IMG/VR virus record: IMGVR_UViG_3300010883_000251
Span: 1-31,185 of that record
DNA: 31,185 bases
From: a virus
Reading direction: 5' to 3' (one strand)
The notes below the pieces were generated by a model, which worked only from the letters and a program-made list of their open reading frames with translations, made no database searches and was not told where the DNA came from. Below are positions 1 to 31,185 of the stretch, in pieces. The first letter of the stretch is position 1. Each line of letters begins with the position of its first letter. The position numbers were made by a program, and so were the translations under genes.

Positions 1-123
1 GTTAATATTTAGAAAAACATCACCATTTTCAATCGGATCAAATCCAAGCATGACACGTTGTTCATTCAATGTCAAGACACTTGCTGGTTGAATATCTGAA
101 AGATATGAAATCGGTGGTTCATA
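1..123. repeat. Left copy of 123-bp terminal direct repeat (identical to 31063..31185)
   Basis: Bases 1-123 (gttaatatttagaaaaacatcacc...tcggtggttcata) recur exactly at 31063-31185. The repeat lies inside the portal ORF, so it is the overlap of a circular or circularly permuted assembly. Unit length is 31062 bp. Confidence 0.9.
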
Positions 124-1224
124 AATTATTTCAAGATCATCAGAATTCAAGTTCGTTTGATCTGAAATGACTTTTCTGATTTTTTTAAGGATCAACCCTT
201 CAACATCTTTGATGATCGTTCCCATCACCATTTCCCATGCGATCCGAATTTCATTTCCAGTGTTCGAAAGATTTCCACCAGAAACAATTCCAGACATTGC
301 TGGTTGCCAACGATGTGCGGTGATTATGTTTTGACTTGTCAATTTTTGAAGTTCCATGAATGAACCATCTGAATTGTCTGACAACATTGTGATGTTTGCT
401 GGTTTTGTATCACCATTTTTCACAAGAAACAAGATCTTTGAATTGTTGTTTTTTCCAGTCCATCGTGCTTGTGCATCTTTCACAAGTGCTTCGGCTTCTT
501 CTTCGCCCATGTCACCATTGATTTCAACGATCGCTGATGGCATGAAATTGTTGTCGAATTTTGTCTTGTTGTATTTTTGAAGAAGATTATCGATTGCCAA
601 CCATGAAAGTGATCCGATGAAATCTGGCATTCCATAATAGGAAAAAGTCGGTTCATAGTCTTTGAAATGTATCACCGAAACGTTTTCTTCAAATTCTGGA
701 TACATCGGAAGGATCAACTGATCTTTTCTTGTTGAATTGTAGTTTGCCCAGTCACCATGAACATAGACGTGTTTCATGTCTTTTGCAAGTCTGACTTTCG
801 TTGCGTCAATGTGATACAAATTGATTCCATTTTTATGCTTCACGATTTCAAGATATGCGTTTCCGAAACAATAATAGTCGAACATCATTTTTCCATAGAT
901 GTCACGCAATGATTCACCATTGTTGACATCGTCAACGAAAGACATCAAAGATTCACTTTGTGATTGAAATTCTTTTCCAACTGACAAGATTTTCTTTTGC
1001 CCAAGAATTGAACGATGCGTTGGCGAAAGTCTTGAAACTTCTGCAAGGTAGTTCGGAAACAAATTGTTCACACCGAATGGAATGTAAGGTGTTGCAGAAC
1101 TTGCAGTTCCAGACATTTCTTCAATTTTTTCTGGAACTGAAAGATTGATCACTTCAAATTTTGCAAATCCAGAATTCTTGACGATTCTATTGATCGTCTG
1201 ATCCAGTTTTTTCTTCTTTGACAT
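1..1224 (-). CDS. Portal protein (412 aa); ORF crosses the circular junction, with the last 4 codons and stop at 31048..31062
   Basis: Not in the ORF track because it runs off the window edge. My translation from ATG 1224 reads MSKKKKLDQTINRIVKNSGFAKFEV...YYGMPDFIGSLSWLAIDN...FDNNFMPSAIVEINGDM...SVLTLNEQRVMLGFDPIENGDVFLNIN, then KEKK-stop across the junction. The C-terminal LNExR..LGF motif and the length are typical of HK97/PBSX-type portals. An alternative internal start is ATG 1116. Confidence 0.8.
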   Translation of the reverse strand, partial: MSKKKKLDQTINRIVKNSGFAKFEVINLSVPEKIEEMSGTASSATPYIPFGVNNLFPNYLAEVSRLSPTHRSILGQKKILSVGKEFQSQSESLMSFVDDVNNGESLRDIYGKMMFDYYCFGNAYLEIVKHKNGINLYHIDATKVRLAKDMKHVYVHGDWANYNSTRKDQLILPMYPEFEENVSVIHFKDYEPTFSYYGMPDFIGSLSWLAIDNLLQKYNKTKFDNNFMPSAIVEINGDMGEEEAEALVKDAQARWTGKNNNSKILFLVKNGDTKPANITMLSDNSDGSFMELQKLTSQNIITAHRWQPAMSGIVSGGNLSNTGNEIRIAWEMVMGTIIKDVEGLILKKIRKVISDQTNLNSDDLEIIYEPPISYLSDIQPASVLTLNEQRVMLGFDPIENGDVFLNIN

Positions 1225-1396
1225 TTGATTTCTTTTTTGATGGTTTTGGTGAATTTTCTTCAATTACAAATGGACATTCTTTTTTGTGAAGTGCTTTCAA
1301 ATTCAATTGTGTCACATCTTTCGTTGTGTATTTTCGTCCATCAAATCGAAATGATTGTGATTTTGCAACGTTGTCGATCAGTTTATATTTTGCCAT
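1187..1396 (-). CDS. Hypothetical small basic protein (69 aa)
   Basis: ATG at 1396 (MAKYKLIDNVAKSQ...) sits just downstream of the terminator hairpin. The 87-aa ORF-track version starts inside that hairpin. The 3' end overlaps the portal start by 38 nt. Confidence 0.5.
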   Translation of the reverse strand: MAKYKLIDNVAKSQSFRFDGRKYTTKDVTQLNLKALHKKECPFVIEENSPKPSKKKSNVKEEKTGSDDQ

Positions 1397-1420
1397 GATT
1401 TTTTTTTTCAAAATTAGTAA

Positions 1421-1464
1421 ATTAAAAACAAAAATGGTGACACCTTGCATGAAAGTGTCACCAT
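1421..1464 (-). terminator. Rho-independent terminator after the 184-aa structural gene
   Basis: Perfect 10-bp stem ATGGTGACAC / GTGTCACCAT (1434-1443 / 1455-1464) with an 11-nt loop. On the minus strand it is followed by TTTTTGTTTTT. The plus strand has only T4. Confidence 0.75.
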
Positions 1465-1509
1465 TTTGATGTTCATATCTTCATGAACTGCATGAATAAG
1501 TGTTTCCGA

Positions 1510-2064
1510 TTAAGGTGTCACTGGAATTGTCAACGTTGTCACGTCACGTGGATATTCTCCTTGTTGTGTCGTCAACGTGATCAAAGTTCCATTTGCAGTT
1601 TGAAGTCCAGTTCCAGTTCCTTGTTCACCAGATGTGAATTCCATGTATGCAGTTTCTTCAAAAATTTCATCCCATCCAAGAACGAATTTATACGTCACCG
1701 CTGGTGAAGCACAATCGTCTGCATAAGTTTCAATGATTGCAGTGATTCCACAACTTGTCGCCAACATCATCAAATCTTCATTGACAACACCAGTGATTTT
1801 TGGAATGTAAAATTCAAGCGAAACATCCATCAAAGTTGATCCATTTTCACGTGTTGCATTTGATGTGAAACCAGCCGTTCCACGTTCAAATTCCCACACC
1901 CAGAAGTAGTCACCAGCAGCAACCATTGTCACCGCAGTATAGTCGTGATCAGATCCAGCAGTGAATGAAGCAATTTTGTCAGTATCAACCAACCAGATTT
2001 TTTTTATTCCACCACGTCTGTTTCTATCGCAACAAATAACGTCATGCCCTCTTGTAATACCCAT
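1510..2064 (-). CDS. Virion structural protein candidate (184 aa), possibly major tail tube or capsid-associated
   Basis: Lies directly after the capsid gene and is followed by a strong terminator. The sequence looks beta-rich (GGIKKIWLVDTDKIASFT..., FYIPKITG..., LITLTTQQG). The function is inferred from position only. Confidence 0.3.
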   Translation of the reverse strand: MGITRGHDVICCDRNRRGGIKKIWLVDTDKIASFTAGSDHDYTAVTMVAAGDYFWVWEFERGTAGFTSNATRENGSTLMDVSLEFYIPKITGVVNEDLMMLATSCGITAIIETYADDCASPAVTYKFVLGWDEIFEETAYMEFTSGEQGTGTGLQTANGTLITLTTQQGEYPRDVTTLTIPVTP

Positions 2065-2099
2065 AATTTTTTATTTTTTATTTTAATATTTCCAGTTAA

Positions 2100-3080
2100 T
2101 TAGTAGCCAATTTGAACAAGTGAATCATGTAAAAATTGAACACCTAATTTGAAATAAGCACGAACATAAACTTTTTCAGTTAAGTCATCATAGAACATTT
2201 TCATTTCACCTTCTGGATCATTTGTGTCAGTTCCAACTGCAAGATTTTGTTTAGCAACATAAGCAATTCTAACATTGTCAGTGATCAACCTTTGTGTCAT
2301 TGCAGTTTCCCAGATATACATCGGAATGATTTCAACCCCTCTGAAATATACTTTCACTGATCCATCAACTAATTGTGAAAACCCTTCTGCATTTCCTAAA
2401 GATTCAAGACTTGTCAAATAGTCATCATAAACTAATCTTGAAACATAAAATGCTTTTTCATTATTTGCAACACCTTGCAAAGCCGCTGGTGCTTGTGTCC
2501 ACATTTTACGAAGTGCAAGAATTCCATCACCAGTTGCGAATGCACCAGAATTTGCGATTGCAACTTTTCTTGCATCAACCGCAGTTGAAGCGATGAAATA
2601 TTTCCACCATCCATCAGTTGAATTGTAACATGCAGCATTTGATCCACTTTCAGTTGTATCACCGAACCAAGCCAATTTGACAACATCTTCTGAAATTCCG
2701 TTTCTTACATTTTGCAAGATTGTGTCTGCAAGTTCAGTTCCTTGAAGATCAAAGACATTGATTCCATTTCTGAAAGATTCTTCAAGATAAGTTCCGAAGA
2801 ACGCATCTTGACATTGTGAAACCGCCACACGCATTCTTCCAGCAGTGATCGTTTTGTCATTCACATTGAAATCACCACTTTCTGCACCACCGCATCCATC
2901 GTATTTTTGAACGATGCAACCAAGTGCGTCCGCAGTGTATAAATTCATTACATGTTTTACATTCGGAATCACTCTGAATTGCATTAAGTCAGAATCTCTG
3001 AATATCGGTTCAAGAAATAACGTGCTAAAATTCGCACCGCTATAAGTTGCCGAAATGTTGTCAAGTGCTACATTTGCCAT
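2100..3080 (-). CDS. Major capsid protein (326 aa)
   Basis: Immediately downstream of the protease-scaffold gene, with typical size and position for an HK97-fold capsid protein. No diagnostic motif could be verified by eye. Confidence 0.65.
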   Translation of the reverse strand: MANVALDNISATYSGANFSTLFLEPIFRDSDLMQFRVIPNVKHVMNLYTADALGCIVQKYDGCGGAESGDFNVNDKTITAGRMRVAVSQCQDAFFGTYLEESFRNGINVFDLQGTELADTILQNVRNGISEDVVKLAWFGDTTESGSNAACYNSTDGWWKYFIASTAVDARKVAIANSGAFATGDGILALRKMWTQAPAALQGVANNEKAFYVSRLVYDDYLTSLESLGNAEGFSQLVDGSVKVYFRGVEIIPMYIWETAMTQRLITDNVRIAYVAKQNLAVGTDTNDPEGEMKMFYDDLTEKVYVRAYFKLGVQFLHDSLVQIGY

Positions 3081-3124
3081 AATTATTGATTTTTTTTGTT
3101 ATTGATTAAGTTTAATTTGATTTT

Positions 3125-5201: not shown

Positions 5202-5277
5202 TCACTAGAGAACAAAAAGTGAAAGTTTTTTTTATTTTTCTGATTGCAAATCATTTCAATTTTTCTATTTTTTACCA

Positions 5278-8200
5278 TTAAAAAGTCGCTTGTGCTTCAA
5301 TATTTTTGACCACTAATTGTGTCGAAGTCACGTCAGATTCTACAAGGAAAACTTTTTGATCAACACGTTCGTTCACTGCATTTGACATTGCAAGTGATTG
5401 TGTTTCCATCATATCAGTTGCCATCACCATCCCACCATCAGCGAATTTTCTTCCACCACCAGCGACATTCATTTGCGACAACATCGGCTTGAACATTGCA
5501 GTTGACTTTTTGTTGATCACCGCTTCACCACCTTCAAGTTCAACAACACGTCCACCCACTGCAAATTTTTCACCACCATTCGCATGTGATTTTCCATTGA
5601 CCATTCCACCAGTTTGAAAAAATGAATCATCCATCACACCACCAAGTTCCGCAGTTGGCGGTGCTTGTGCGTTTATTGAAGCAACTTGAATTCCAGTCAT
5701 TGCAACTTGTGCCGCAGTCAAAATTGATTTGATGATCGCATCAGCAAGTGGATTTCCAGTGATGTTTCCAGCCCAGATCGTCATGATTGCCATTGCACCA
5801 GACATGATCGCTTGTGCTTTCATCATTTTTTTGTCACGATCAAATTGTGCAACTTTCAATGCAAGAATTTTTGCATCATGTTTCTTTGTGATCTTTTCTT
5901 CCATCTTCGCTTGATCTTCAGAACTTGCGATTTTGTATTCTTGTGTTTCACGAATTGCTTTCAATTCAGTTTCCTTCGCACCTTCAATTCCTTGAATTTC
6001 AGTGTTCATTTGTTCATTCTGCAATTGTGTCACCGCAGACATGATTCCCATGACTTGACCGATCGTTGTTGAAATTGAATTGATCAAATCTTCACCAGTG
6101 AATCCTTCACCATCTTCAGATGATCCGAACAAAGTTTTTCGCATGAATCCTTCATTGCCAGTTTCAGCACCTAGATTCGAAAGATCTTTTTGATATCCAG
6201 TGATCGTTCTTTTCAAAGTGTTGATGTTGTCAACTTGTGCTTGTGTTGATGAATCAGAACTTTGAATTGTGATCAATGCAAGATCCAGTTGTGATTTTGC
6301 AATTTTCAGTGCTTGTGAAATTCGTTCTTTCGTTAATTTCGCACCAGCGTCTTCAAGTTTTTTCATTGAATCAAGTTGAAGTGTGTCCGCATCAATCACT
6401 TTGTTGATCTTTTCAATTTGATCAGCAAGTGCATCACTTGTCGGTTTCAAAGATTCTGCAATTTTTTTGTTTTGTTTGATCACCGCATCATCAACCACCA
6501 TCAAATTCTTTTTTGCAGTTTTCAATTTTGCAACTTGTTTCACAATTTGTTCATCACTTGCTTTTCCAATTGCTTTCAATGCGATCAATGACTTCAATTG
6601 TTTTTCTTCAATTGACACCGCTTCACGTAGTTTTTCATATTGTGTCAACACTTTTCCTTTTGCTTTGTCTTCTTCAACCACCGCAGTCACAAGTCCATTC
6701 ACAATTTCTTGTGCTTTTGACATTTTTCCATTTTGTTGTTCTTGAATTGCAACAATCTTTTTCTGTATTCCTTCACGTTTTGAAATTGCATCTTGATAGT
6801 CTTGTTCAAATTCAGTGTTTTGTTGTGTTCGAACACCATCACGTTTTTTGACATCAAGATTTGAAGCAATCGCATTTCCTTCTGAATCAAGCATCTGAAT
6901 TGTGCTGTTTTTTTGAAGATTGTCATTTGCCGCAATTGCTTCATTTTCTTTCATCACCGAATTTCTGATGTTAAGTTGAAGATTTTCAGCGGCTTGTGCT
7001 TTTTCCAGATCTTTCATCAGTTCAACTTCTTCTGCAACCAGTCCAAGAACTTCACCTTTTGCAAGGTCAAGAATATATTTTGCCTTTATATTGTCAACCG
7101 CTGATTTGTATGCTGCGGCAAGTTCAGTTGTCAGTTTCTTTTCATTGTCAAGATTTGTGATGTTAGTTCCAGCAATTGCATTCAAGTTCTTCACCGCAGT
7201 CATTCGATCTTCACGTGACTTTGTTTCATCTTTTATTGAAGCGATCAATGATTTCACATTTGCAAGTTCATCAACTTGTGTCTTTTCAAGATTCTTTTGA
7301 AGTGTTGACATTCTTTCAGTTTCCTTGTTTATCTTTTCAAGTCCTTTTGCTGAATCTTCAGTTTCATCAGACATTGTTGAAAATAAAGCAACACCAGCCG
7401 CCAATGCACCGACAAGAAGTCCAACTGGATTCGCTTTGATTGCTATATTCAACAACTTCATTGCACGTGTTAAACCTTTGACACCGCCACTTGTAGCAAC
7501 TGCGACAATTCGCATTGCAGTTGTTGCGATTGACCACAATCTTGTTGCAACACTTGCAGCGATCACGACAACTTTGTATGCTACGAATCCAGCGGTCAAA
7601 GAAACAATGACTGGTGAAACCGCTTTCAATACACCGAATAGTGACATCAAAACTTCCATAATTACAGACAAGACTGGTTGCAAATTGTCAGTCAATTCAA
7701 GTGCGAATCCTTCCGCTGAACTTTTCACTTCATCAATTTGTCCTTTCAATGAATCACGCATGACATCGGCAAATCTTTTCGTTGTGCCTTGTGCATTTTG
7801 AAGTTTTTCAGACATTTCAGTGATTGATTCTGATCCAGACAACATTGAAGCGAATGCAGTCACCGATCTTTTGTCAGTGATGTCAAGCATTCCAGCAACA
7901 TCAATTCCACTTGCAACCAGTTCATTCATTGCTGGAACTAATTCATCAACCGAAGTGATGTTTCTTCCAAGTGATTTCGCAAGATCACCAGTCGGATCAG
8001 CAAGTTTCAAGAATATATTTTTCAAAGACGTTCCAGCGGTTGAAGCATCAAGACCAGCATTCGTCAAAGTTCCAAGAATTGCAGTTGTGTCTTCAAGTGT
8101 GAATCCGAGTGCTTGTGCAACTGGTGCTGATTTTGCCATTGCAGTTTCAAATTTCGCAAGATCAAGTGATGAATTTGCGAATGCAGTTGCCATCACATCA

Positions 8201-9030
8201 GTGACACGTGTTGCTTCACTAGAATCAAGATTGAATTGTCGAAGTGTTGAACCAACCGCAGTCGCAGTCGTTCCAAGATCATCACCGAATGCGAATGCAA
8301 GATCAAGAACTGAAGATGTCATGTTTTCAATTTCAGTTGGATCAAATCCAAGTTTTGCAAGTTCCTTTTGTAGTCCAGCAACTTCACCAGCGGTGAATGC
8401 AGTTGATGATCCAAGATCTTTCGCAGACTTTTCAAGCATTGCAAGTTCAGTTGCAGTCGCACCAGAAATCACACCGACTTGTTTGATCTGGAATTCAAAG
8501 TCAACAAAAGTTCCGATGACACGTTCCAACGTTTTGAATGCTAAAATTGCAGCACCTAATTGAACACCCATTCCTTTGATCGCACCACCATAGTTTCCGA
8601 CATTCCTTTGTGATCGTCCCATTTTCGCATCCATCTTTGTCAATGCAGCGGTGTTTGTATTTATTTGACCAGATAGTTTCTGAAATGCTTTTGCATCTTT
8701 TCCAAGTGGATCAGCAAGTTTTTTCAATTGAACAACAAGTGAAGCGTTTTTCTTTGTCAAATCATTATAAGATTTTCCAGTGATTTTTGCGGCTTCAGAA
8801 ACTTTGATCAAATCATTCTTTTGACCGACCAGTCCTTTTTTCAGTGCTTTCAATTTTGTTTCTTGTTCAACAATGTTCTTTGAAAATTTTGATCCTTCAG
8901 CACCAGCGGCTTTTTGTTCGGCTTTCAGATCCTTCAATTCCTTTTGTGTCTTGTCAATTTCATCTTTGAATTTGACCATGTCTGAAGTTCCTTCAACTTT
9001 TATCGAAAGTATTGTTTCTAAATTTGCCAT
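5278..9030 (-). CDS. Tail tape measure protein (1250 aa)
   Basis: TP901-type TMP core (FEFQIKQVGVISGATATELAMLEKSAKDLGSSTAFTAGEVAGLQKELAKLGF...LDASTAGTSLKNIFLKL), central hydrophobic segments, long coiled coils and a Gly-rich C-terminus. At about 0.15 nm per residue the length suggests a tail near 190 nm. Confidence 0.9.
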   Translation of the reverse strand: MANLETILSIKVEGTSDMVKFKDEIDKTQKELKDLKAEQKAAGAEGSKFSKNIVEQETKLKALKKGLVGQKNDLIKVSEAAKITGKSYNDLTKKNASLVVQLKKLADPLGKDAKAFQKLSGQINTNTAALTKMDAKMGRSQRNVGNYGGAIKGMGVQLGAAILAFKTLERVIGTFVDFEFQIKQVGVISGATATELAMLEKSAKDLGSSTAFTAGEVAGLQKELAKLGFDPTEIENMTSSVLDLAFAFGDDLGTTATAVGSTLRQFNLDSSEATRVTDVMATAFANSSLDLAKFETAMAKSAPVAQALGFTLEDTTAILGTLTNAGLDASTAGTSLKNIFLKLADPTGDLAKSLGRNITSVDELVPAMNELVASGIDVAGMLDITDKRSVTAFASMLSGSESITEMSEKLQNAQGTTKRFADVMRDSLKGQIDEVKSSAEGFALELTDNLQPVLSVIMEVLMSLFGVLKAVSPVIVSLTAGFVAYKVVVIAASVATRLWSIATTAMRIVAVATSGGVKGLTRAMKLLNIAIKANPVGLLVGALAAGVALFSTMSDETEDSAKGLEKINKETERMSTLQKNLEKTQVDELANVKSLIASIKDETKSREDRMTAVKNLNAIAGTNITNLDNEKKLTTELAAAYKSAVDNIKAKYILDLAKGEVLGLVAEEVELMKDLEKAQAAENLQLNIRNSVMKENEAIAANDNLQKNSTIQMLDSEGNAIASNLDVKKRDGVRTQQNTEFEQDYQDAISKREGIQKKIVAIQEQQNGKMSKAQEIVNGLVTAVVEEDKAKGKVLTQYEKLREAVSIEEKQLKSLIALKAIGKASDEQIVKQVAKLKTAKKNLMVVDDAVIKQNKKIAESLKPTSDALADQIEKINKVIDADTLQLDSMKKLEDAGAKLTKERISQALKIAKSQLDLALITIQSSDSSTQAQVDNINTLKRTITGYQKDLSNLGAETGNEGFMRKTLFGSSEDGEGFTGEDLINSISTTIGQVMGIMSAVTQLQNEQMNTEIQGIEGAKETELKAIRETQEYKIASSEDQAKMEEKITKKHDAKILALKVAQFDRDKKMMKAQAIMSGAMAIMTIWAGNITGNPLADAIIKSILTAAQVAMTGIQVASINAQAPPTAELGGVMDDSFFQTGGMVNGKSHANGGEKFAVGGRVVELEGGEAVINKKSTAMFKPMLSQMNVAGGGRKFADGGMVMATDMMETQSLAMSNAVNERVDQKVFLVESDVTSTQLVVKNIEAQATF

Positions 9031-16420: not shown

Positions 16421-17725
16421 TCAACCGAAATATAGAATTTTTGTCCTTGATAAGTCAAAAAAAGATCGCATCGCAATTGCATCTGAAATGTCTGGTGATC
16501 GTCCCAGCATTGATTTGATTTGATCTTTCGGTGTCATTGAAATTCGATTGTCTTTGTCAATGTCATGTTGCTTGACCAGTTCAAGTTCTGAAATGATTTG
16601 ATGTCTGATTTCTGGATCACTTTCATGAATACTGATTTCACCTTTTTCAACTTTGTTTGCTAGGTGATAGTAGCATTGCGTTTTTAAATTTTTATAGTTT
16701 TGATCATTCAATGCTTTTGATCCATTGACGAATGCTTTCGTTCCTTGAATGAAATCTGGAATCGCACCACCGACACCATCTGAATCAGTGATGATGTTTG
16801 ATCTTGAAATCTTGTATTGATTTGCATATTTCTTCACGTTGTCTGCAAGTTCCAGCAACGTGTTCTTTTTCCATGTCTTGATCTTGATCAGTTTCCAACC
16901 GCTAAAAATACAAATCACCGACTTGTCACGACCGAATCGTGCAACATCAACTGACATGATCTTTTCACCATCTGGAATGAAATCATTTGTGAACATGTCA
17001 TTCAATTTGTCAATTGAAAAAAGATTTGAATCATCTTCTGAATAGTTCCAGTCACCGAACAACAATCGTTTCTTGTTCAAATTGTCAAGTCCTTCAAGTT
17101 GTTTGATGTAATGTTTTGAAATGTTTGGATTGTCAGTCACCAGCGATTGAATGAATGCTTTGTTCGGATCAAGCGTTCCATTTGAAAATGGTTTCCAGAA
17201 CTGACTGAACACCCATCCTTTCGAAGGATTGCACGTGATCAACGTTTTCGGAATCAAATTGTTTTCGTCAAGTTTGTATCTGATCCGACTTTGAATGATT
17301 GCGAATGCAGTCGGTGTGATTTCAGCGGCTTCATCAATGAATAGTCCAGAAATTTCCAAAGATCCAAGTGCGTCAAAGTTCGGATCGCTAGGCATAGCGA
17401 ACAAGTCTTTCAAGATGATCACTGATCCAGTCTGAAAAAACTTGATGGTTGATTCTGTTTGATTATAGTTGAAATCAACACCACCTTTCAATCCTTGCAT
17501 TTTGCAGCATTCGAAAAGACTTTGCAATGTCGTTTCCTTCAACGTCTTCAACCTTGATCTTCCGATGCACCATTTTGTGTTCGGAAACTTCAGACATTGT
17601 TTCAATATGAAATAACAACCCAGCATTGATTTGCCACCACCAGCACCGCCACCATAGCAAATCACATTGTGAACATCATCTTCAAGAAGATCAATTGCTT
17701 GTGTCTGTTTGATCGATAGGTGCAT
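16421..17725 (-). CDS. terL: Terminase large subunit (434 aa)
   Basis: Walker A YGGGAGGGKS, Walker B LFIDEA, coupling motif TCNP, and nuclease motifs VDVARFGRDKS and DSDGVGG. Confidence 0.92.
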   Translation of the reverse strand: MHLSIKQTQAIDLLEDDVHNVICYGGGAGGGKSMLGCYFILKQCLKFPNTKWCIGRSRLKTLKETTLQSLFECCKMQGLKGGVDFNYNQTESTIKFFQTGSVIILKDLFAMPSDPNFDALGSLEISGLFIDEAAEITPTAFAIIQSRIRYKLDENNLIPKTLITCNPSKGWVFSQFWKPFSNGTLDPNKAFIQSLVTDNPNISKHYIKQLEGLDNLNKKRLLFGDWNYSEDDSNLFSIDKLNDMFTNDFIPDGEKIMSVDVARFGRDKSVICIFSGWKLIKIKTWKKNTLLELADNVKKYANQYKISRSNIITDSDGVGGAIPDFIQGTKAFVNGSKALNDQNYKNLKTQCYYHLANKVEKGEISIHESDPEIRHQIISELELVKQHDIDKDNRISMTPKDQIKSMLGRSPDISDAIAMRSFFDLSRTKILYFG

Positions 17726-20188: not shown

Positions 20189-20830
20189 TTATTTTTTTAG
20201 TGATTCAATGATTTCTTCACACAATTGTGATGGAATAACACTTCGAAGAAAATTTCCTTTGATTCCTTGTGTTCCAGTTCTTGAACCTCGTGGTGCTGAT
20301 TGATGACATTTCATGCCATTTTTGCACATTTTTCGTGGTTTCCATTTCAAATGATTTGTCCAGATGTCCGTTGGTTTCATTCTTCTTTGTTCAAGTGGAA
20401 GATCAAGATCATATTGACAATATGTGATTGTATTTCGAACACCAACATTTTCCATGAAGTCCATTTTTCGCAACAATCCTCGTGGATTCTCAATGAAGAA
20501 AAATTCTGGATTGAAATGATTGATGATTTCCAGTGTCTTTTTTACGATTTCAATTCCTTTTTTTGATGCGTCTGATTTTGGTTGTCGTTCTTTTGTCCAG
20601 TGATGATAACAAGACGCAATTGAAAAGGTTGTGCAAGGTGGTGATGCCCAAATGATGTCTGGTTTGAACGGAACTTTTGAAACATCAAACTTCAAGATGT
20701 CAACAACATAGTCAATTTTTTCGAAATTTTTGAAATCAGTGGTGAATGTTTCAAAACCATTTGATTCTGCGACCTTTGAAAAAGATCGACTGCCTGCAAA
20801 AAGTTCTAAAACTTTTAGTTTTTTTTCCAT
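20189..20830 (-). CDS. Compact DNA (cytosine-5)-methyltransferase (213 aa)
   Basis: Motif I LELFAGSRS, motif IV ASPPCTTFS, motif VI FIENPRGL, then QRRMKPTDIWTN and GNFLRSVIPSQLCEEI (motif X-like). The true start is ATG 20830 (MEKKLKVLELFAG). The ORF-track N-terminal extension reads through the promoter repeat. Confidence 0.85.
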   Translation of the reverse strand: MEKKLKVLELFAGSRSFSKVAESNGFETFTTDFKNFEKIDYVVDILKFDVSKVPFKPDIIWASPPCTTFSIASCYHHWTKERQPKSDASKKGIEIVKKTLEIINHFNPEFFFIENPRGLLRKMDFMENVGVRNTITYCQYDLDLPLEQRRMKPTDIWTNHLKWKPRKMCKNGMKCHQSAPRGSRTGTQGIKGNFLRSVIPSQLCEEIIESLKK

Positions 20831-20878
20831 TTGTTTTTGTTTTTTAGGTTGTCCGAAACATTGTGTTTCTTTCATGGT

Positions 20879-20957
20879 GTAAAAGTAAACCTTTTTTTCA
20901 TTCCGCAATGCACAAATCAAAGTTTTTTTCATTTATTTTCACTTTACTAGATAAGGA
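20879..20957 (-). promoter_or_regulatory. Repeated early promoter element, copy a
   Basis: The minus strand reads TCCTTATCTAGTAAAGTGAAAATAAATGAAAAAAACTTTGATTTGTGCATTGCGGAATGAAAAAAAGGTTTACTTTTAC. The 26-nt core (20879-20904) is identical in 4 copies. It contains TTG-N18-TACTTTTA. Confidence 0.6.
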
Positions 20958-26858: not shown

Positions 26859-26935
26859 GTAAAAGTAAACCTTTTTTTCATTCCACAACACGAAAATGAA
26901 AGTTTTTTTCATTTATTTTGTGTTTACTAGAGTAA
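26859..26935 (-). promoter_or_regulatory. Repeated early promoter element, copy d
   Basis: The minus strand reads TTACTCTAGTAAACACAAAATAAATGAAAAAAACTTTCATTTTCGTGTTGTGGAATGAAAAAAAGGTTTACTTTTAC. Confidence 0.6.
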
Positions 26936-26973
26936 AACAACCAAGAAAAAAGATGAAAGTTTTCTTTATTTGA

Positions 26974-28212
26974 TCAAATATTGTGTGCAAATTGACACAC
27001 AAGTCCATCGTTTTCGTCCCATACGAACATTTCACATGACTGAATTCCGCCTTTGTAGCCCTTCAAATTGTGCCATGCATCAGTTCCAGACAAAGATCGC
27101 ATGAATCTGATCACCATTCCTTTGTGTTCTTGTGTTGCCATGAATTTGATTTCCTTCTTGTGATGCAAGTGACCGACATGAACTTCACGAAATTTCGTTT
27201 CAGACCACAATTTCGGTTCTTCTGATGCTACAAGCAAAGGAAGATCAGCAACTTTTTCATTGTTTCCATGTGTGTAGGTGATCAGACATTTTCCGAATTT
27301 ATAGTGCTTTCGTGGATTCGCACCATTGTTCACATGAACGTTCTTGTTGTTATGATACCAGCATTCCATTGCATCACCAACATAGAACGATCTTTCGAAG
27401 TCGTGGTTTCCTTGAACCACAATGACATCAACTGGTGCGATCGTTGTCAACATGTCAATTCCTTTGATCAACAATTCACGTCCACTTTTATAGGTTTTTT
27501 GCCATCGAAGATCTTCATCTTGCGGTGTCAAATTTGAAGTCGTGTTTCTTTGATTGTCAGAATTGAAGAAATCGTTTCCAATAGGAAAAACAATTCGTTT
27601 GATATCGAAACCCTTTGATCGTGTGATCATCGCTGCAATCGCATCAAGAAACCTTTTTGAAGCGATCTTTGTGTCATAGTTTTCACCAGTTTCTTTTCCC
27701 CAGCATAATTTTCCGAAATGCAAATCGAATATATTTATTTCCATCAATTGACCTTTGTCAATGATCTTGTAGTCGATCGGCTTGTATATAGGTGAAAACG
27801 TTTTTACTTCTTGAATGATTTCATTTCTGATTTGTTTCAGATTGAAAATTTCAGTTGATTTCTTCAACCATGCTTTGATCTGAAAAAGTGGTTCAACAAT
27901 GATTTGACCATCAACTTGTGATCCGACTTCCCATTTGTTCACAACATAACGATCAACCATCCAGATCGATTCATCAATGTCACAAGCAATGATCAAGTCT
28001 TGAAGTGTTTTGATCCTTGATGATTTCGGTGAAGTGATCGTTTGATCATTCTTTTTGTTTTCAATTTGAATTTCACCACCTTTTTTTGAATAGTTGATTG
28101 CAGCATTCAGACATTGTTTCTGAATTTCTTCTGGCAACTTTCGAAGATTTTGGATCAGTGGTGTGATTGAATCAGTCCAACGTGGACGAAATTGTTTTTT
28201 GAATTTTGTCAT
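26974..28212 (-). CDS. Calcineurin-like metallophosphoesterase (412 aa) with an N-terminal extension of about 150 aa
   Basis: Ordered motifs are IFDLHFG (DxH), PIGNDFFNSD (GDxxD-like), VQGNHDF (GNHD), YTHGNNE and VGHLHHK (GHxH). Confidence 0.8.
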   Translation of the reverse strand: MTKFKKQFRPRWTDSITPLIQNLRKLPEEIQKQCLNAAINYSKKGGEIQIENKKNDQTITSPKSSRIKTLQDLIIACDIDESIWMVDRYVVNKWEVGSQVDGQIIVEPLFQIKAWLKKSTEIFNLKQIRNEIIQEVKTFSPIYKPIDYKIIDKGQLMEINIFDLHFGKLCWGKETGENYDTKIASKRFLDAIAAMITRSKGFDIKRIVFPIGNDFFNSDNQRNTTSNLTPQDEDLRWQKTYKSGRELLIKGIDMLTTIAPVDVIVVQGNHDFERSFYVGDAMECWYHNNKNVHVNNGANPRKHYKFGKCLITYTHGNNEKVADLPLLVASEEPKLWSETKFREVHVGHLHHKKEIKFMATQEHKGMVIRFMRSLSGTDAWHNLKGYKGGIQSCEMFVWDENDGLVCQFAHNI

Positions 28213-28289
28213 ACTATAAAGAAAAAGATTTTTTGTTGTGAATCAACAATGGATCATCAAGCACAATGAACATGTCAATGTTCACAATA

Positions 28290-28760
28290 TCATCTGAATA
28301 TGCTGAAAATGTCTTTGAAGAAAATTCGAAGAACAAGAAGAAACATTGAAATTGCAAAGATGAACATTGCCCAGTCTTTTGCACGTTCTGCAAATGTCAG
28401 TTCACGAACGATGATTTTTTCAAATGGAACTTTTGTTTCAATGAAGATTGTGTCACCAATACATTCACCAGTCAAGAAAATGATTGAATCTTGTCTGATG
28501 TATTGAATTTTGATTTTGTCTTTCGTGATGATGATCGTGTCTGAATTTGAAAATGGATCATTGAAAAATGATGTGTCAACACTTATTGATTGAATTCGAA
28601 TTGTATCATTCAAGACGATCGTGTCTTTCAATTGAAGTTCTGGAAACTTTTGTGTCAAATTAAAGATCTTTTTTTCCGCACGTTCCACTTTGCAAACACG
28701 TGTTGTGCAGCAACTTGAAATCAGTAAACCAAGAAAAAAGATTATCACTATTTTTTGCAT
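28290..28760 (-). CDS. Unimolecular spanin candidate (156 aa): N-terminal lipoprotein signal plus C-terminal transmembrane helix
   Basis: MQKIVIIFFLGLLISSC has a lipobox I-S-S-C. The C-terminus WAMFIFAISMFLLVLRIFF is hydrophobic, and the middle looks beta-rich. It is the last gene of the lysis cassette and overlaps the upstream gene by 13 nt. Confidence 0.5.
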   Translation of the reverse strand: MQKIVIIFFLGLLISSCCTTRVCKVERAEKKIFNLTQKFPELQLKDTIVLNDTIRIQSISVDTSFFNDPFSNSDTIIITKDKIKIQYIRQDSIIFLTGECIGDTIFIETKVPFEKIIVRELTFAERAKDWAMFIFAISMFLLVLRIFFKDIFSIFR

Positions 28761-28966
28761 TCACAAAAAGTTTTCGTTCCAGAAGATCGTTTTGTTTCAC
28801 CATAGATGTAGCCGATCACAAATGGTGAAAGTGCTGCGAAATATGCTGCAAATTGCGACATGTTGGTGTCATTTTTTATTCCAAGAAATCCGAAGATCAA
28901 CCATGCGATCATCATGAATATTGTGATCAAGAATCTTTTCGAACTTATCATTTCAATGAATTTCAT
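28748..28966 (-). CDS. Holin/antiholin-like membrane protein (72 aa, two predicted TM helices)
   Basis: FLITIFMMIAWLIFGFLGI and FAAYFAALSPFVIGYIYG, with a charged C-terminus. It lies between the endolysin and the spanin candidate. Confidence 0.5.
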   Translation of the reverse strand: MKFIEMISSKRFLITIFMMIAWLIFGFLGIKNDTNMSQFAAYFAALSPFVIGYIYGETKRSSGTKTFCECKK

Positions 28967-28977
28967 ATTTTTATTTT

Positions 28978-29463
28978 TTAAAGATGGACATTTTTCATTG
29001 CAAGTCCAATGTCACAACAATAGTCTGCAACGTTGAATGATGGACATGCTTTTGAAGAAAACTGATTGTGACCAGCAACTTTCAAATCTGGATTTCGCAA
29101 GATTTCGTGTTTGATATATATTTCAAGCGTCTTGCATTGATCATCAGTCAAAGTGTTTTTCGGTTCTTTTGTTTTCTTATCAAGTCCACCAATGTAGCAA
29201 ACATGCTTTGAATGTGAATTTTCACCACGAACACCCCACGTCATTTCAGAACTTTCAATGAATCCATCAAAAGGATTTGAACCTTTTGCGAAATGTAGAT
29301 TGTGAAGTGATCCATCAATTGTGATGACATCTGAATATCCAACACGTGACCATCCACGACCAGATTTTCCCATGTGCCATTCACGAATTGTTTCTGGACG
29401 AATGTCATCACCTTCATAAGTTGCTGAACAATGAATGATCAAGAATTTTTGTTTTTTCATCAT
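28978..29463 (-). CDS. Endolysin: N-acetylmuramoyl-L-alanine amidase, T7-lysozyme/PGRP type (161 aa)
   Basis: IIHCSAT, IREWH..GRGWSRVGY, VCYIGG, VAGHNQF..KACPSFNV are collinear with the zinc-amidase motifs of T7 lysozyme. Confidence 0.9.
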   Translation of the reverse strand: MMKKQKFLIIHCSATYEGDDIRPETIREWHMGKSGRGWSRVGYSDVITIDGSLHNLHFAKGSNPFDGFIESSEMTWGVRGENSHSKHVCYIGGLDKKTKEPKNTLTDDQCKTLEIYIKHEILRNPDLKVAGHNQFSSKACPSFNVADYCCDIGLAMKNVHL

Positions 29464-29643
29464 TTATTTTGGCGGTCGATTCCAGTTTTTCAATTCTTTT
29501 GATATCTTGATGATCGTCCAGATGATTGCGGTTGAATAGGAAACCAACTTCAAAGACATTTCAAATTCAGTCATCGAAATTCCTAATGCACCAACATTCA
29601 AGATGATAGTCATCGGACAAATTCTTTCAATTATTTCATTCAT
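29464..29643 (-). CDS. Holin-like small membrane protein (59 aa)
   Basis: ATG 29643 (MNEIIERICPMTIILNVGALGISM...LVSYSTAIIWTIIKI...KELKNWNRPPK). The ORF-track start at 29655 is GTG. Its stop abuts the endolysin ATG (TAAATG). Confidence 0.55.
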   Translation of the reverse strand: MNEIIERICPMTIILNVGALGISMTEFEMSLKLVSYSTAIIWTIIKISKELKNWNRPPK

Positions 29644-29673
29644 TTTTGTTGACACTTGTTTAATTTTTATATT

Positions 29674-30492
29674 TTAGAAACCGATCATGATGTTTGTGTT
29701 CAAATGAAATGTCATTTCTTCTTTTGCCAAGTGATAAGCAGACAAGACCAGAACTTCATTCGGTTGCATGAATTCGTCCCATCCTTCACAAGTTGAAAAT
29801 GCAGAAACATTGAAACAAATCGGTGTGTTGTTTCCAGTCATTGTCAAATTGATTGCAGAAGATCGGCAAACTGGAATTTCAGATGGAAATTCACCTTCAA
29901 TCGGACATGCTAACTTGACACGCAACAAACTGATTGTCACTTGCGTTCCACTTGATCCATAAGCCCAGCCATTCCAATTTTTCAAAGATGCACCACTGAT
30001 CGGATTTGTCCACACTGATGAATTCACCATGTTTTTCGGTGACATCGATGTCAGATTTGCAGCACCTAAATTCGTGGAAAATTTGTGTTCATTGTTGTAT
30101 TGTGCATTACCAAGACCGAATTCAATTCCACCAACAATTGAACCGAAAGATTTTATATTTCTTGAAACAAAATTGTTTGCAGTTCCAGATGAATTGATCG
30201 TCACGTTGCCAGTTCCACCAGAAGGTGAAATCGTGATTCCAGTCCCAGCAACAATTTGTGAAACACCAGCACCAGCCGCATTGATTGTGACGTTGCCAGT
30301 TCCACCGACTGGTGAAATTGTCACACCAGTTCCAGCAACAATTTGCGAAACCGCACCACCACCACCAGAATCAGCAATCCATTCAAGATTTCCAGTTGCA
30401 TTTTTTGTCAACTTTGTTGAATTTGCCGCAGCAACAAAGTCTTTTGGATGGTGAAGTTGATCATTTTGAAGATCACGATGAAAATTTGACAT
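29674..30492 (-). CDS. Tail fibre / receptor-binding-like protein (272 aa) with tandem 29-aa repeats
   Basis: VSQIVAGTGVTISPVGGTGNVTINAAGAG / VSQIVAGTGITISPSGGTGNVTINSSGTA. It has a Cys-containing C-terminal domain and lies between the head module and the lysis genes. Confidence 0.5.
   Translation of the reverse strand: MSNFHRDLQNDQLHHPKDFVAAANSTKLTKNATGNLEWIADSGGGGAVSQIVAGTGVTISPVGGTGNVTINAAGAGVSQIVAGTGITISPSGGTGNVTINSSGTANNFVSRNIKSFGSIVGGIEFGLGNAQYNNEHKFSTNLGAANLTSMSPKNMVNSSVWTNPISGASLKNWNGWAYGSSGTQVTISLLRVKLACPIEGEFPSEIPVCRSSAINLTMTGNNTPICFNVSAFSTCEGWDEFMQPNEVLVLSAYHLAKEEMTFHLNTNIMIGF
30193..30366 (-). repeat. Tandem 87-bp direct repeat (2 copies) inside the fibre-like gene
   Basis: attgatcgtcacgttgccagttccacc... 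at 30193 and attgattgtgacgttgccagttccacc... at 30280. The period is 87 bp, or 29 codons. Confidence 0.8.
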
Positions 30493-30510
30493 TTTTTTTT
30501 GTTTTTTTTA

Positions 30511-31044
30511 TTAGTATATTATCATTCCATGTGTCTTTGAAACACGTGGTGATCCATCACTGCAAATTGAATTGTTTCCATTTGAATATTCTGGAAAAGA
30601 TTTTGCATTCAAATTGATGAAATCCATCATTTCCTTCAACATGACTTTTCCTTTTCGATATGTGTCTTGTTTATAAACATTCAATTCGTTTGAAGAAACT
30701 GCATGTGAAAATTCTGGAATGTTTGTCACGATTCCACTTGAAGTTGATTGATGTTGAATTTCAACGATCAGTTCAAATCTTGTGAACCATGCAAGTGTCG
30801 GTTTTATCCAGTCAGTCATCAAAGTTGTTTCATCAGCGGTTTCAGTTCCAGCATCAAATGCATCTTTCAAATGAATGTAAAACTTTGAAGACAAAGGTTC
30901 TTTGATGTGTGCAATTTCTGAAAGAATTCTGATTTCACGTGATATCAATTGCGGATCAGTGTTTTGATTTGTGAATGCAAGTGCGATCACTTCAGATTCA
31001 AGCATGAATGGATCATCGTTCATGTAGTTGTTTGATAATGGCAT
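30511..31044 (-). CDS. Hypothetical protein (177 aa), possible head-tail connector by position
   Basis: Starts 3 nt after the portal stop (TAAAAAATG). No motif recognised. Confidence 0.3.
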   Translation of the reverse strand: MPLSNNYMNDDPFMLESEVIALAFTNQNTDPQLISREIRILSEIAHIKEPLSSKFYIHLKDAFDAGTETADETTLMTDWIKPTLAWFTRFELIVEIQHQSTSSGIVTNIPEFSHAVSSNELNVYKQDTYRKGKVMLKEMMDFINLNAKSFPEYSNGNNSICSDGSPRVSKTHGMIIY

Positions 31045-31047
31045 TTT

Positions 31048-31185
31048 TTATTTTTTTTCTTTGTTAATATTTAGAAAAACATCACCATTTTCAATCGGAT
31101 CAAATCCAAGCATGACACGTTGTTCATTCAATGTCAAGACACTTGCTGGTTGAATATCTGAAAGATATGAAATCGGTGGTTCATA
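31048..31185 (-). CDS. Portal protein 3' end (duplicate of 1..123 plus the true last 4 codons and stop)
   Basis: The frame continues ...GDVFLNIN-KEKK-TAA with the stop at 31048-31050. The same ORF runs off the left edge of the window. Confidence 0.75.
   Translation of the reverse strand, partial: YEPPISYLSDIQPASVLTLNEQRVMLGFDPIENGDVFLNINKEKK
31063..31185. repeat. Right copy of the 123-bp terminal direct repeat
   Basis: Exact identity with 1-123. Confidence 0.9.

What the first reader, a model, noticed from the sequence alone, without database searches (positions are those of the whole stretch)
1..31185. Apparent total absence of six 4-bp palindromes (AGCT, GTAC, GGCC, CCGG, GCGC, CGCG)
I read through every agc, gct, gta, tac, ggc, gcc, ccg, gcg and cgc context I could find, and I found no AGCT, GTAC, GGCC, CCGG, GCGC or CGCG anywhere in the 31 kb. 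Base composition alone would predict tens of each GC-only tetramer and on the order of a hundred each for AGCT and GTAC (rough zero-order estimate). Non-palindromic tetramers of the same composition (GCCG, CGGC, CCGC, CGCC, TGCT, AGCA) are common. Other palindromes (GATC, CATG, TGCA, TCGA, ACGT) are present. Codon choice appears to bend to achieve this: Ala after an A-ending codon is GCA or GCC, never GCT. This is the classical signature of selection by 4-base type II restriction systems (AluI-, RsaI-, HaeIII-, HpaII-, HhaI- and FnuDII-like specificities) in the host lineage. CCWGG may also be missing.
Basis: seen in the sequence. Interest (0 to 1): 0.65.

Follow-up and report, generated by a model that had tools for sequence, protein, structure and literature searches.

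The report
Marine phage purged of restriction sites
This complete ~31 kb genome of an uncultured marine phage contains no copy at all of six 4-base palindromes and lacks several other short words; this is an extreme, still-evolving case of the known trick of deleting the sequences that bacterial restriction enzymes cut.

Summary
AGCT, GTAC, GGCC, CCGG, GCGC and CGCG each occur 0 times in 31,185 nt. Base composition predicts 29-98 of each, a maximal-order Markov model 5-28, and a shuffle of synonymous codons that keeps proteins and codon usage 4-38.

The window is a complete circular genome of a tailed phage, assembled independently from several marine metagenomes. Its relatives point to Bacteroidota/Flavobacteriia hosts.

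The restriction-avoidance reading is supported:
- Absent 4-mers are strongly enriched for palindromes (6/16 vs 2/120, p=2.5e-5).
- Avoidance works through context-dependent synonymous codon choice.
- Clade members only 72-75% identical in DNA all keep the zeros.
- Sister clades lack different palindrome sets, and targets turn over between close relatives.

ACNGT, CGNCG, CTGCAG, CAGG/CCTG, CCCG/CGGG, ACAG/CTGT and ACGG/CCGT are also independently avoided. Three features are not explained by classical type II enzymes:
- The trinucleotide GAG/CTC is nearly eliminated (15 seen, ~620 expected).
- TA is at 0.24 of expectation, with measurable loss of tyrosine.
- CCC is missing from the coding strand only.

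A compact C5-methyltransferase gene is a recent add-on and does not cause the pattern.

The principle is known; the degree is exceptional. The host and its enzymes remain unidentified.

The parts
1..31185 (.). Whole genome free of AGCT, GTAC, GGCC, CCGG, GCGC and CGCG. Also 0 of ACNGT, CGNCG, CTGCAG, CCNGG, GGNCC and CCCG/CGGG; 1 of CAGG/CCTG; 15 of GAG/CTC. TA is at 0.24 of expectation.
1..123 (.). Left copy of a 123-bp exact terminal direct repeat (assembly overlap of a circular or circularly permuted genome of about 31,062 bp)
   Evidence: contigs of 30.5-31.2 kb for the same phage in other samples
31063..31185 (.). Right copy of the 123-bp terminal direct repeat
20189..20932 (-). Compact C5-cytosine DNA methyltransferase. 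The real start is probably Met35, giving about 213 aa, because homologues are 200-210 aa. Motifs: I LELFAGS, IV SPPCTTFS, VI ENPRG. It is a recently acquired second anti-restriction device and not the cause of the avoidance.
   Evidence: PF00145 at 38.6 bits against a cutoff of 22; phrog_757; alignment; AlphaFold model with pLDDT 83.6 matching DNMT2/DNMT3/M.HaeIII/M.HhaI at probability 1.0. Present only in the window's own species (L001-L005) and absent from L007-L009 and L027. Its GAG/CTC density is 8x the genome's.
20287..20491 (-). Three of the genome's 15 residual GAG/CTC trinucleotides (at 20287, 20479, 20489), clustered inside the methyltransferase gene
16421..17725 (-). Terminase large subunit, the marker used to define the phage family and its sub-clades
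   Evidence: PF03237/PF04466; homologues
1..1224 (-). Portal protein, N-terminal 408 aa; the ORF runs off the window start, consistent with a circular contig opened inside this gene
   Evidence: phrog_12 and other portal families
5278..9030 (-). Tape measure protein (1250 aa)
   Evidence: PF10145 listed for the identical gene in L001
21001..21357 (-). VRR-NUC family nuclease (118 aa)
   Evidence: PF08774; phrog_824/5702
26974..28212 (-). DNA repair exonuclease-like protein (412 aa)
   Evidence: phrog_704, E=1e-76
28978..29463 (-). Endolysin amidase (161 aa)
   Evidence: phrog_822, E=4e-37
5204..5228 (-). Intergenic element AAACTTTCACTTTT-N4-CTCTAGT (coding-strand view) holding one of only four coding-strand CTC trinucleotides
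26926..26962 (-). Second intergenic copy of AAACTTTCATCTTT...CTCTAGT, holding another residual CTC

Best explanation
The window is the complete genome of an uncultured, probably virulent, tailed phage of marine Bacteroidota. Selection by host restriction-modification systems has purged it of their recognition sites. Any genome that acquires one of these words is cut on infection and lost. Synonymous codons and codon pairs are therefore chosen so that the words never arise in any frame, on either strand, or between genes.

Shown: at least nine palindromic specificities are independently eliminated (AGCT, GTAC, GGCC, CCGG, GCGC, CGCG, ACNGT, CGNCG, CTGCAG), along with several asymmetric words (CAGG/CCTG, CCCG/CGGG, ACAG/CTGT, ACGG/CCGT). 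The set differs between sister lineages and changes between close relatives, as expected if each lineage tracks the changing restriction repertoire of its own hosts.

Inferred: that the selective agents are type II (and some type IIS-like) endonucleases, and that the host is a flavobacterium.

A second layer (GAG/CTC nearly absent, TA at a quarter of expectation with loss of Tyr, CCC missing from the coding strand only) is real and maintained by selection or a strong directional force. Its agent is unknown.
For: (1) Zero counts against composition, Markov and codon-preserving nulls; about 131 sites are expected even with the proteins and codon usage fixed.

(2) Absent 4-mers are enriched for palindromes: 6/16 vs 2/120, p=2.5e-5. 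GATC, TGCA, CATG, ACGT, TCGA, AATT, GCNGC, TCNGA and CANTG are normal or high.

(3) Codon choice depends on context: A|GCT 0/89, C|GCG 0/67, G|GCC 0/50.

(4) Clade members (L007-L009, L027) are 72-75% identical in DNA yet share the zeros. About 3,495 positions are one substitution from a site, so roughly 100-300 new sites would be expected neutrally.

(5) None of 103 SNPs among six >99.6%-identical assemblies creates a site, against about 3.8 expected.

(6) Taboo sets are lineage-specific. Clade b lacks GATC, CATG, CCGG and GGCC. Clade d lacks GATC, TCGA, CTAG and GTAC. Clade f lacks 18 words. Phage 11b lacks only GGCC.

(7) Targets turn over: ACGT is purged in L007/L008 (0 of 25 and 0 of 37 aligned window sites), and CCGG is tolerated again in L027 (12 sites).

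(8) Further words are independently avoided under a null that already enforces the six palindromes, GAG/CTC and TA.

(9) No integrase was seen in the ORFs scanned. Avoidance is known to be strongest in non-temperate dsDNA phages and for orthodox type II sites (Rusinov et al. 2018, PMC6286503).

(10) The same phage was assembled in several independent datasets.
Against: The host is unknown and no restriction enzyme has been linked to any of the words. The matches to named enzyme specificities (AluI, RsaI, HaeIII, HpaII, HhaI, FnuDII, Tsp4CI, Hpy99I, PstI) come from memory and were not checked against REBASE.

Nine or more simultaneous specificities would need an unusually restriction-rich host pangenome or a broad host range. 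Several avoided words (GAG/CTC as a 3-mer, CAGG, ACAG, ACGG, coding-strand-only CCC and GACC) do not match classical type IIP sites, so at least part of the signature needs another agent. The enrichment of one-step neighbours (CCAG/CTGG and others) is also what methylation-driven deamination would leave.
Confidence: 0.8

Rival explanations
1. The zeros are a by-product of base composition, extreme codon usage or a context-dependent mutational bias (for example deamination of methylated cytosines), with no selection against the words themselves.
For: Codon usage is extreme (GAA 542 vs GAG 3; CTC 1; CCC 0; GCC 12 of 507 Ala). One-step neighbours such as CCAG/CTGG, GCAC and CGTG are enriched. Most of the GATC, TGCA and CATG enrichment is a by-product of the restricted vocabulary.
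Against: A shuffle that keeps proteins and the phage's own codon usage still expects about 131 sites where 0 are seen. Mutational decay gives a reduced equilibrium frequency, not all-or-none absence of exactly the palindromic words. Sister clades with the same GC content and homologous proteins lack different words. The SNP spectrum shows no dominant hypermutation class.
Confidence: 0.03
2. The avoidance is real and defence-driven, but the agents are not classical type II restriction endonucleases. The words could be targets of host methyltransferases, so that phage DNA marked in one host is cut by methylation-dependent (type IV) nucleases in the next. Or they could be targets of other sequence-reading systems such as restriction glycosylases or phosphorothioate-based systems.
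For: Removing the sites altogether escapes both modification and restriction. The phage carries its own C5-methyltransferase, so methylation status matters in this system. Several avoided words are not classical type IIP sites.
Against: Nothing here tells this apart from ordinary R-M pressure. The palindromic 4-5-mers have the canonical architecture of type IIP sites. Published surveys attribute nearly all avoidance to orthodox type II systems (PMC6286503).
Confidence: 0.1
3. The phage avoids these words because its own nuclease(s) cut them, for example to degrade host DNA, so the genome must be free of its own enzymes' targets.
For: The genome encodes a VRR-NUC nuclease and an exonuclease-like protein.
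Against: Nine or more specificities would need many sequence-specific nucleases; only one small VRR-NUC and one SbcD-like exonuclease are present. Neither family is known for 4-bp sequence specificity (from general knowledge). The same genes occur in clade members whose taboo sets differ.
Confidence: 0.02
4. It is a technical artefact of assembly, library preparation or sequence selection.
For: None was found. The only conceivable route is that a restriction-based library would enrich for site-free DNA.
Against: The same genome was assembled in at least six samples from different projects and assemblers (Tara scaffolds, SPAdes NODE contigs, MEGAHIT k141 contigs). Relatives are present in JGI IMG/VR. 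The coding sequence is intact with homologous proteins.
Confidence: 0.01
5. For the GAG/CTC component only: the trinucleotide is a CRISPR protospacer-adjacent motif, or the target of a very frequent nicking or cutting enzyme, of the host lineage. Eliminating it makes the genome invisible to that system.
For: Depletion is strand-symmetric, holds in all frames and is about 40-fold. It recurs in a distant relative (L038, TerL ~50%) that does not share the AGCT/GTAC loss, so it is a separable module. Three-base recognition exists in nature (chlorella-virus nickases and 3-nt PAMs; from memory).
Against: No host, CRISPR array or enzyme is known. Published PAM depletion in phages is weak (PMC4246573, listed, abstract only). 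GAG/CTC co-occurs with TA depletion, which hints at a common, possibly different, cause.
Confidence: 0.2

Closest known systems
Restriction-site avoidance in virulent dsDNA phages (surveyed by Rusinov et al. 2018, PMC6286503; classical examples recalled from memory are Bacillus phages lacking GGCC and staphylococcal phage K lacking GATC)
   Same: Complete elimination of short palindromic type II-like recognition words through synonymous changes, in a dsDNA phage with no sign of lysogeny.
   Different: The number of targets eliminated at once: at least nine independently supported palindromic specificities plus several asymmetric words, in a 35% GC genome. Avoidance extends to a trinucleotide and a dinucleotide, with an effect on amino-acid composition. 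It is documented in an uncultured marine phage family whose sub-clades each carry a different taboo set.
Flavobacterium phage 11b and Cellulophaga phage phi10:1 (nearest cultured relatives by terminase)
   Same: TerL is 46% and 42% identical. Phage 11b has a similar genome size (36 kb), and both have Flavobacteriia hosts.
   Different: Phage 11b lacks only GGCC and has normal AGCT and GTAC (5.4 and 2.8 per kb) and normal TA. There is no DNA-level similarity.
Phage-encoded orphan C5-cytosine methyltransferases used for self-protection
   Same: PF00145 domain, catalytic PC and ENV-type motifs, and a C5-MTase fold.
   Different: It is only about 205-213 aa with a minimal target-recognition module and 13-20% identity to solved enzymes. 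No sequence-level PDB match reaches significance: the single sequence found none at E<=1 and the family profile's best C5-MTase hit was E=0.63. Specificity is unknown. It cannot target any of the avoided words, since the genome has none.
Orientation bias of asymmetric sites as escape from type III restriction (T7 and EcoP15I; from memory)
   Same: CCC (1 vs 91) and GACC (4 vs 47) occur almost only in one orientation.
   Different: The words are 3-4 nt, shorter than known type III sites. An mRNA-level cause is equally possible, because all genes are on one strand.

Membership tests
Restriction-site avoidance by a phage | Specific short words are absent or strongly under-represented relative to composition, Markov and codon-aware nulls | tested here: met
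Restriction-site avoidance by a phage | Avoided words are predominantly short palindromes (type IIP site architecture), while other palindromes are not avoided | tested here: met
   6/16 palindromic vs 2/120 non-palindromic 4-mers absent, p=2.5e-5; GATC, TGCA, CATG, AATT and GCNGC are normal or high
Restriction-site avoidance by a phage | Avoidance is independent of reading frame and achieved by synonymous, context-dependent codon choice | tested here: met
Restriction-site avoidance by a phage | Avoided set is lineage-specific and turns over among related phages (tracks hosts, not proteins) | tested here: met
Restriction-site avoidance by a phage | Maintained by ongoing purifying selection | tested here: met
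   Zeros are shared at 72-75% DNA identity with about 3,495 one-off positions; 0 of 103 SNPs create a site against about 3.8 expected, which is weak on its own
Restriction-site avoidance by a phage | Host encodes restriction enzymes that recognise the avoided words | not testable with these tools
   No close prophage or host was found (cellular TerL relatives are at most 52% identical); REBASE is not available
Restriction-site avoidance by a phage | Each avoided word corresponds to a known enzyme specificity | not tested
   Matches to AluI, RsaI, HaeIII, HpaII, HhaI, FnuDII, Tsp4CI, Hpy99I and PstI are recalled from memory only. GAG/CTC, CAGG, ACAG and ACGG have no match I can recall.
C5-cytosine DNA methyltransferase (PF00145) | Pfam domain above the gathering threshold | tested here: met
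   38.6 bits vs 22
C5-cytosine DNA methyltransferase (PF00145) | Catalytic motifs I (FxGxG), IV (PC) and VI (ENV) conserved | tested here: met
   LELFAGS, SPPCTTFS and ENPRG are invariant across 21 homologues
C5-cytosine DNA methyltransferase (PF00145) | C5-MTase fold | tested here: met
   Foldseek probability 1.0 to DNMT2, DNMT3A/B, M.HaeIII and M.HhaI; TM-score (query) 0.41-0.56 among the listed hits; model pLDDT 83.6
C5-cytosine DNA methyltransferase (PF00145) | Target-recognition domain of usual size between motifs VIII and IX | tested here: not met
   The family is 200-210 aa with only about 40 residues in that position, so it is a compact variant
C5-cytosine DNA methyltransferase (PF00145) | Defined methylation target | tested here: inconclusive
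   Among 67 carrier loci, TGCA and GCNGC/GCWGC are essentially never avoided and GCWGC is often 2-4.5x enriched. This is a lead only.
Type III restriction escape by site orientation bias | Asymmetric word present almost only in one orientation | tested here: met
   Coding-strand CCC 1 vs GGG 91; GACC 4 vs GGTC 47, against codon-shuffle expectations of 50 and 40
Type III restriction escape by site orientation bias | Word length of 5-6 nt, typical of type III sites | tested here: not met
   The minimal biased words are 3-4 nt
CRISPR PAM depletion | A 2-5 nt motif depleted on both strands | tested here: met
   GAG/CTC: 15 observed vs about 620 expected
CRISPR PAM depletion | Host CRISPR system uses that motif as its PAM | not testable with these tools
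   Host unknown

The most novel reading that the evidence does not exclude
The near-elimination of GAG/CTC, the four-fold TA depletion that has cost the proteome about a quarter of its tyrosines, the coding-strand-only loss of CCC, and the ten-fold CG depletion in the distant relative L038 may together be footprints of nucleic-acid-targeting systems in aquatic Bacteroidota that read only 2-3 nucleotides. Candidates are very frequent nickases or cutters, a 3-nt PAM-dependent system, or an mRNA-level nuclease. This would be a class of selective agent not so far inferred from phage genomes, and this phage family would be a natural read-out of it.
Probability: 0.2. Interest if true: 0.8.

Novelty: new member of a known kind. 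Interest (0 to 1): 0.58.

Why it matters
Restriction-site avoidance is textbook biology. It is usually shown for one or a few sites in cultured phages with known hosts. Here an abundant, uncultured marine phage family carries a different list of forbidden words in each lineage, with gains and losses visible between close relatives.

That makes the phage genomes a culture-free record of the restriction repertoires of marine Bacteroidota. It gives a natural system for measuring how fast such arms races run, and a possible host-prediction signal: matching taboo sets to host methylomes.

The degree of constraint shows how far defence pressure can reshape a genome. Codon pairs, codon usage and even tyrosine content are all affected. 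The unexplained trinucleotide, dinucleotide and strand-specific components point to selective agents that are not yet identified.

Tried and rejected
1. DNA similarity to cultured phages: none (blastn). Only protein-level relatives were found.

2. Host identification through prophages: the genome-contig scan found only TerL relatives of 52% identity or less. They are nearly all Bacteroidota, but there is no close match. No tRNA genes.

3. The methyltransferase as cause or beneficiary of the pattern: rejected. It is absent from clade members that share the zeros and the GATC enrichment.

4. GATC, TGATCA, TGCA and CATG enrichment as a selected feature (for example Dam-related): mostly rejected. 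A null that also enforces TA and the taboo words reproduces TGCA, CATG and TGATCA, and leaves GATC only about 1.3-fold high.

5. TTAA, CTNAG, CCWGG, GGWCC and most 6-bp palindromes as independent targets: not supported once the six palindromes, GAG/CTC and TA are imposed. They are absent or rare but are by-products or have too little power. CTGCAG, ACNGT and CGNCG survive that test.

6. General palindrome or hairpin avoidance: rejected.

7. Sequence search of the MTase against the PDB: the single sequence found nothing at E<=1 and the family profile's best C5-MTase hit was E=0.63. The fold search was needed.

8. Literature: I found no description of this phage family's avoidance or of trinucleotide elimination in phages. 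A marine methylome paper gave no Flavobacteriia-specific motifs.

9. The intergenic motif AAACTTTCAYYTTT: 3 copies, not significant against shuffles (2 of 100 shuffles reach that count).

Full report
**1. The observation**

Exact counting confirms the finding. AGCT, GTAC, GGCC, CCGG, GCGC and CGCG each occur 0 times in the 31,185-nt window.

| Word | Zero-order expectation | Maximal-order Markov | Codon shuffle |
|---|---|---|---|
| AGCT | 98 | 28.4 | 37.9 |
| GTAC | 98 | 13.2 | 35.0 |
| GGCC | 29 | 4.8 | 4.2 |
| CCGG | 29 | 21.0 | 19.1 |
| GCGC | 29 | 18.3 | 14.5 |
| CGCG | 29 | 18.2 | 20.6 |

The codon shuffle is the strictest null. It shuffles synonymous codons while keeping every protein sequence and the phage's own codon usage. 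It still expects about 131 sites in 24.4 kb of coding sequence. Only GGCC is individually weak under the conservative nulls.

- Same-composition non-palindromes are present, as are GATC, TGCA, CATG, TCGA and ACGT.
- Ala is never GCT after an A-ending codon (0/89). GCG never follows a C-ending codon, and GCC never follows a G-ending codon.

**2. What the sequence is**

All long ORFs lie on the minus strand. They encode:
- a portal protein;
- terminase small and large subunits;
- a tape measure protein;
- an amidase endolysin;
- a VRR-NUC nuclease and an exonuclease-like protein;
- a compact C5-cytosine methyltransferase.

No integrase appeared in the ORFs scanned, and there are no tRNAs. A 123-bp exact terminal repeat shows the contig is a complete circular assembly of about 31.06 kb.

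The identical terminase is encoded on 16 contigs, up to 31.2 kb long, from several independent marine metagenome assemblies including Tara Oceans. Six of them are more than 99.6% identical to the window and also have zero sites. So the sequence is real and not an artefact.

No cultured phage is similar at the DNA level. The nearest by terminase are Flavobacterium phage 11b (46%) and Cellulophaga phage phi10:1 (42%). Cellular homologues are at most 52% identical and are overwhelmingly in Bacteroidota. A Bacteroidota, probably Flavobacteriia, host is therefore inferred, not shown.

**3. Is it restriction avoidance?**

Several independent predictions were tested.

- **Palindromes.** Of the eight strand-merged 4-mers that are entirely absent, six are palindromes: 6/16 palindromic vs 2/120 non-palindromic, Fisher p=2.5e-5. 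Other palindromes are normal or frequent, so this is not general palindrome avoidance.
- **Frame independence.** The avoidance holds in every frame and operates at codon junctions.
- **Persistence.** The window's clade (TerL at least 82% identical; L007-L009, L027) is only 72-75% identical in DNA, yet all members keep the zeros. About 3,495 positions in the window are one substitution away from one of the six words, so neutral divergence of this size should have created on the order of 100-300 sites.
- **Population level.** None of 103 SNPs creates a site, against about 3.8 expected. This is weak alone but points the same way.
- **Lineage specificity.** This is the decisive result. Sister clades with similar GC content and homologous proteins lack different sets:

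| Clade | Words lacking |
|---|---|
| L010-L012 | GTAC, GCGC, CGCG, CTNAG, GANTC |
| L013, L014, L025 | GATC, CATG, CCGG, GGCC, GGNCC |
| L016 | GATC, TCGA, CTAG, GTAC, ACNGT |
| L019-L021, L023 | 18 words, including AGCT, CATG, CTAG, GTAC, CCGG, GGCC |
| Phage 11b | GGCC only |

- **Turnover.** Targets change between close relatives. ACGT is completely purged in L007 and L008, where 0 of 25 and 0 of 37 aligned window sites are retained. CCGG is tolerated again in L027 (12 sites). ACGG/CCGT return in L009 and L027.

This is the pattern expected if each lineage tracks the changing restriction repertoire of its hosts. It fits published surveys, in which avoidance is concentrated on orthodox type II sites and in non-temperate dsDNA phages (PMC6286503).

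**4. The full list of avoided words**

I used a null that already enforces the six palindromes, GAG/CTC and non-increase of TA. Under it, the following are still strongly depleted (observed / expected):
- ACNGT 0 / 18.6
- CGNCG 0 / 14.4
- CTGCAG 0 / 12
- CAGG 1 / 60 and CCTG 0 / 24
- CCCG 0 / 9.4 and CGGG 0 / 14.8
- ACAG 17 / 61 and CTGT 1 / 35
- ACGG + CCGT 5 / 54

CCWGG, GGWCC, CTNAG, TTAA and most 6-bp palindromes are absent or rare. They are by-products or lack statistical power once those constraints are imposed.

Most of the striking enrichment of GATC (343), TGATCA, TGCA and CATG comes from the restricted vocabulary. A constrained null reproduces TGCA, CATG and TGATCA and leaves GATC about 1.3-fold high.

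**5. A second, unexplained layer**

- **GAG/CTC.** The trinucleotide occurs 15 times against about 620 expected from composition. The codon shuffle expects 155 + 136 and 10 + 1 are seen, on both strands and in all frames. Glu is GAA 542 times and GAG 3 times.
- **TA.** TA is at 0.24 of expectation. TAA/TTA is 4.5-fold lower than in sister clades. Tyrosine, the only unavoidable TA, falls from 3.95% to 2.86% of residues. In TerL orthologues Tyr falls from 19.1 to 13.8 while Phe rises.
- **Strand-specific words.** CCC is essentially absent from the coding strand only (1 vs 91 GGG). GACC shows the same orientation bias (4 vs 47 GGTC).
- **Separability.** A distant relative, L038, is a 30-kb contig binned in a freshwater MAG with TerL about 50% identical. 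It shares GAG/CTC (0.03) and TA (0.21) depletion but keeps AGCT and GTAC, and has CG at 0.10 of expectation. So this layer is separable from the palindrome set and recurs elsewhere.
- **Candidate agents**, none testable here: very frequent nickases or cutters, elimination of a 3-nt CRISPR PAM, orientation-dependent (type III-like) systems or mRNA-level nucleases for the strand-specific words, or a context-specific mutational process.

**6. The methyltransferase**

The gene at 20189-20932 belongs to a very abundant family of 200-210-aa proteins on marine viral contigs.
- Motifs I, IV and VI are invariant.
- The AlphaFold model (pLDDT 83.6) matches DNMT2, DNMT3, M.HaeIII and M.HhaI at probability 1.0 but only 13-20% identity, and the target-recognition module is minimal.
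- It is present only in the window's own species and absent from the other clade members.
- It carries 3 of the 15 residual GAG/CTC sites, 8x the genome density, and a low GATC density, but none of the six palindromes.

I read it as a recently acquired, not yet fully ameliorated, second anti-restriction device. I also read this as a sign that the palindromes are under harder, all-or-none selection than GAG/CTC. Its target is unknown. Across 67 carrier loci, TGCA and GCNGC/GCWGC are almost never avoided, and GCWGC is often enriched. That is only a lead.

**7. Verdict**

The phenomenon is a known kind. This is an exceptionally extreme and evolutionarily dynamic instance in an uncultured marine phage family. 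Among 113 loci compared over equal lengths, the window clade ranks at the top for absent 4-mers, with 10-12 against a median of 1. The GAG/CTC, TA and CCC layer is the part that could lead to something new.

Noticed in passing
window 20189-20932 (-); loci L109-L188: A very abundant family of unusually small (200-210 aa) C5-cytosine methyltransferases on marine viral contigs: all 8,000 candidates scored passed E<=1e-5 (the search scores only the top 8,000) and 560 viral loci were confirmed. It has a true C5-MTase fold but a minimal target-recognition module and no significant sequence match in the PDB. Carriers almost never avoid TGCA or GCNGC, and GCWGC is often 2-4.5x enriched.
   Followed up: partly
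L038 (JBIPMB010000304.1, 30.5-kb contig binned in a freshwater 'Gammaproteobacteria' MAG): A phage-like relative (TerL ~50%) with CG at 0.10 of expectation, TA at 0.21, GAG/CTC at 0.03 and no GATC, while AGCT and GTAC are present. This is extreme dinucleotide-level depletion in a phage, and the contig is probably mis-binned.
   Followed up: partly
window, whole genome; TerL 16421-17725: Tyrosine content is about 28% lower than in sister clades (2.86% vs 3.95%; TerL 13.8 vs 19.1 Tyr, with Phe up). This fits TA avoidance acting at the protein level.
   Followed up: partly
window, coding (minus) strand: Strand-specific avoidance: CCC 1 vs GGG 91; GACC 4 vs GGTC 47; TAAG 4 vs CTTA 32. Pro codons are essentially never preceded by a C-ending codon.
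   Followed up: partly
window 5204-5228 and 26892-26962 (-): Intergenic motif AAACTTTCAYYTTT (3 copies), twice followed by CTCTAGT, which holds two of the four coding-strand CTC trinucleotides. It may be a regulatory element that tolerates the taboo word. Not significant against shuffles.
   Followed up: partly
L016-L018, L019-L021, L023, L024, L026: Several sister clades lack the non-palindromic 4-mer CCAG/CTGG, and subsets of them also ACAG/CTGT, AGAG/CTCT or GACC/GGTC; the window has CCAG/CTGG 2.4x enriched. Asymmetric 4-mers are recurrent targets in this family.
   Followed up: no
L055 (Bacteroidia MAG contig) and L036 (contig binned as a Methanobacteriota archaeon): More distant TerL relatives with 7 of 16 palindromic 4-mers absent in their first 12 kb, so extreme palindrome avoidance recurs across the wider family. 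The archaeal binning of L036 looks doubtful.
   Followed up: no
window, genome-wide: GATC remains about 1.3-fold above a null that enforces all taboo words and TA avoidance (277 vs about 212 in coding sequence). The enrichment is shared by clade members that lack the methyltransferase.
   Followed up: partly
window 29674-30492 (-): A 272-aa protein with an internal tandem repeat (VSQIVAGTG[VI]TISP.GGTGNVTIN), probably a tail fibre or receptor-binding protein. It had no family hit.
   Followed up: no
L009 7226-7423: Weak tblastn match (53% over 66 aa) to the window's methyltransferase in a clade member that lacks the orthologue. It may be a different C5-MTase or a remnant.
   Followed up: no
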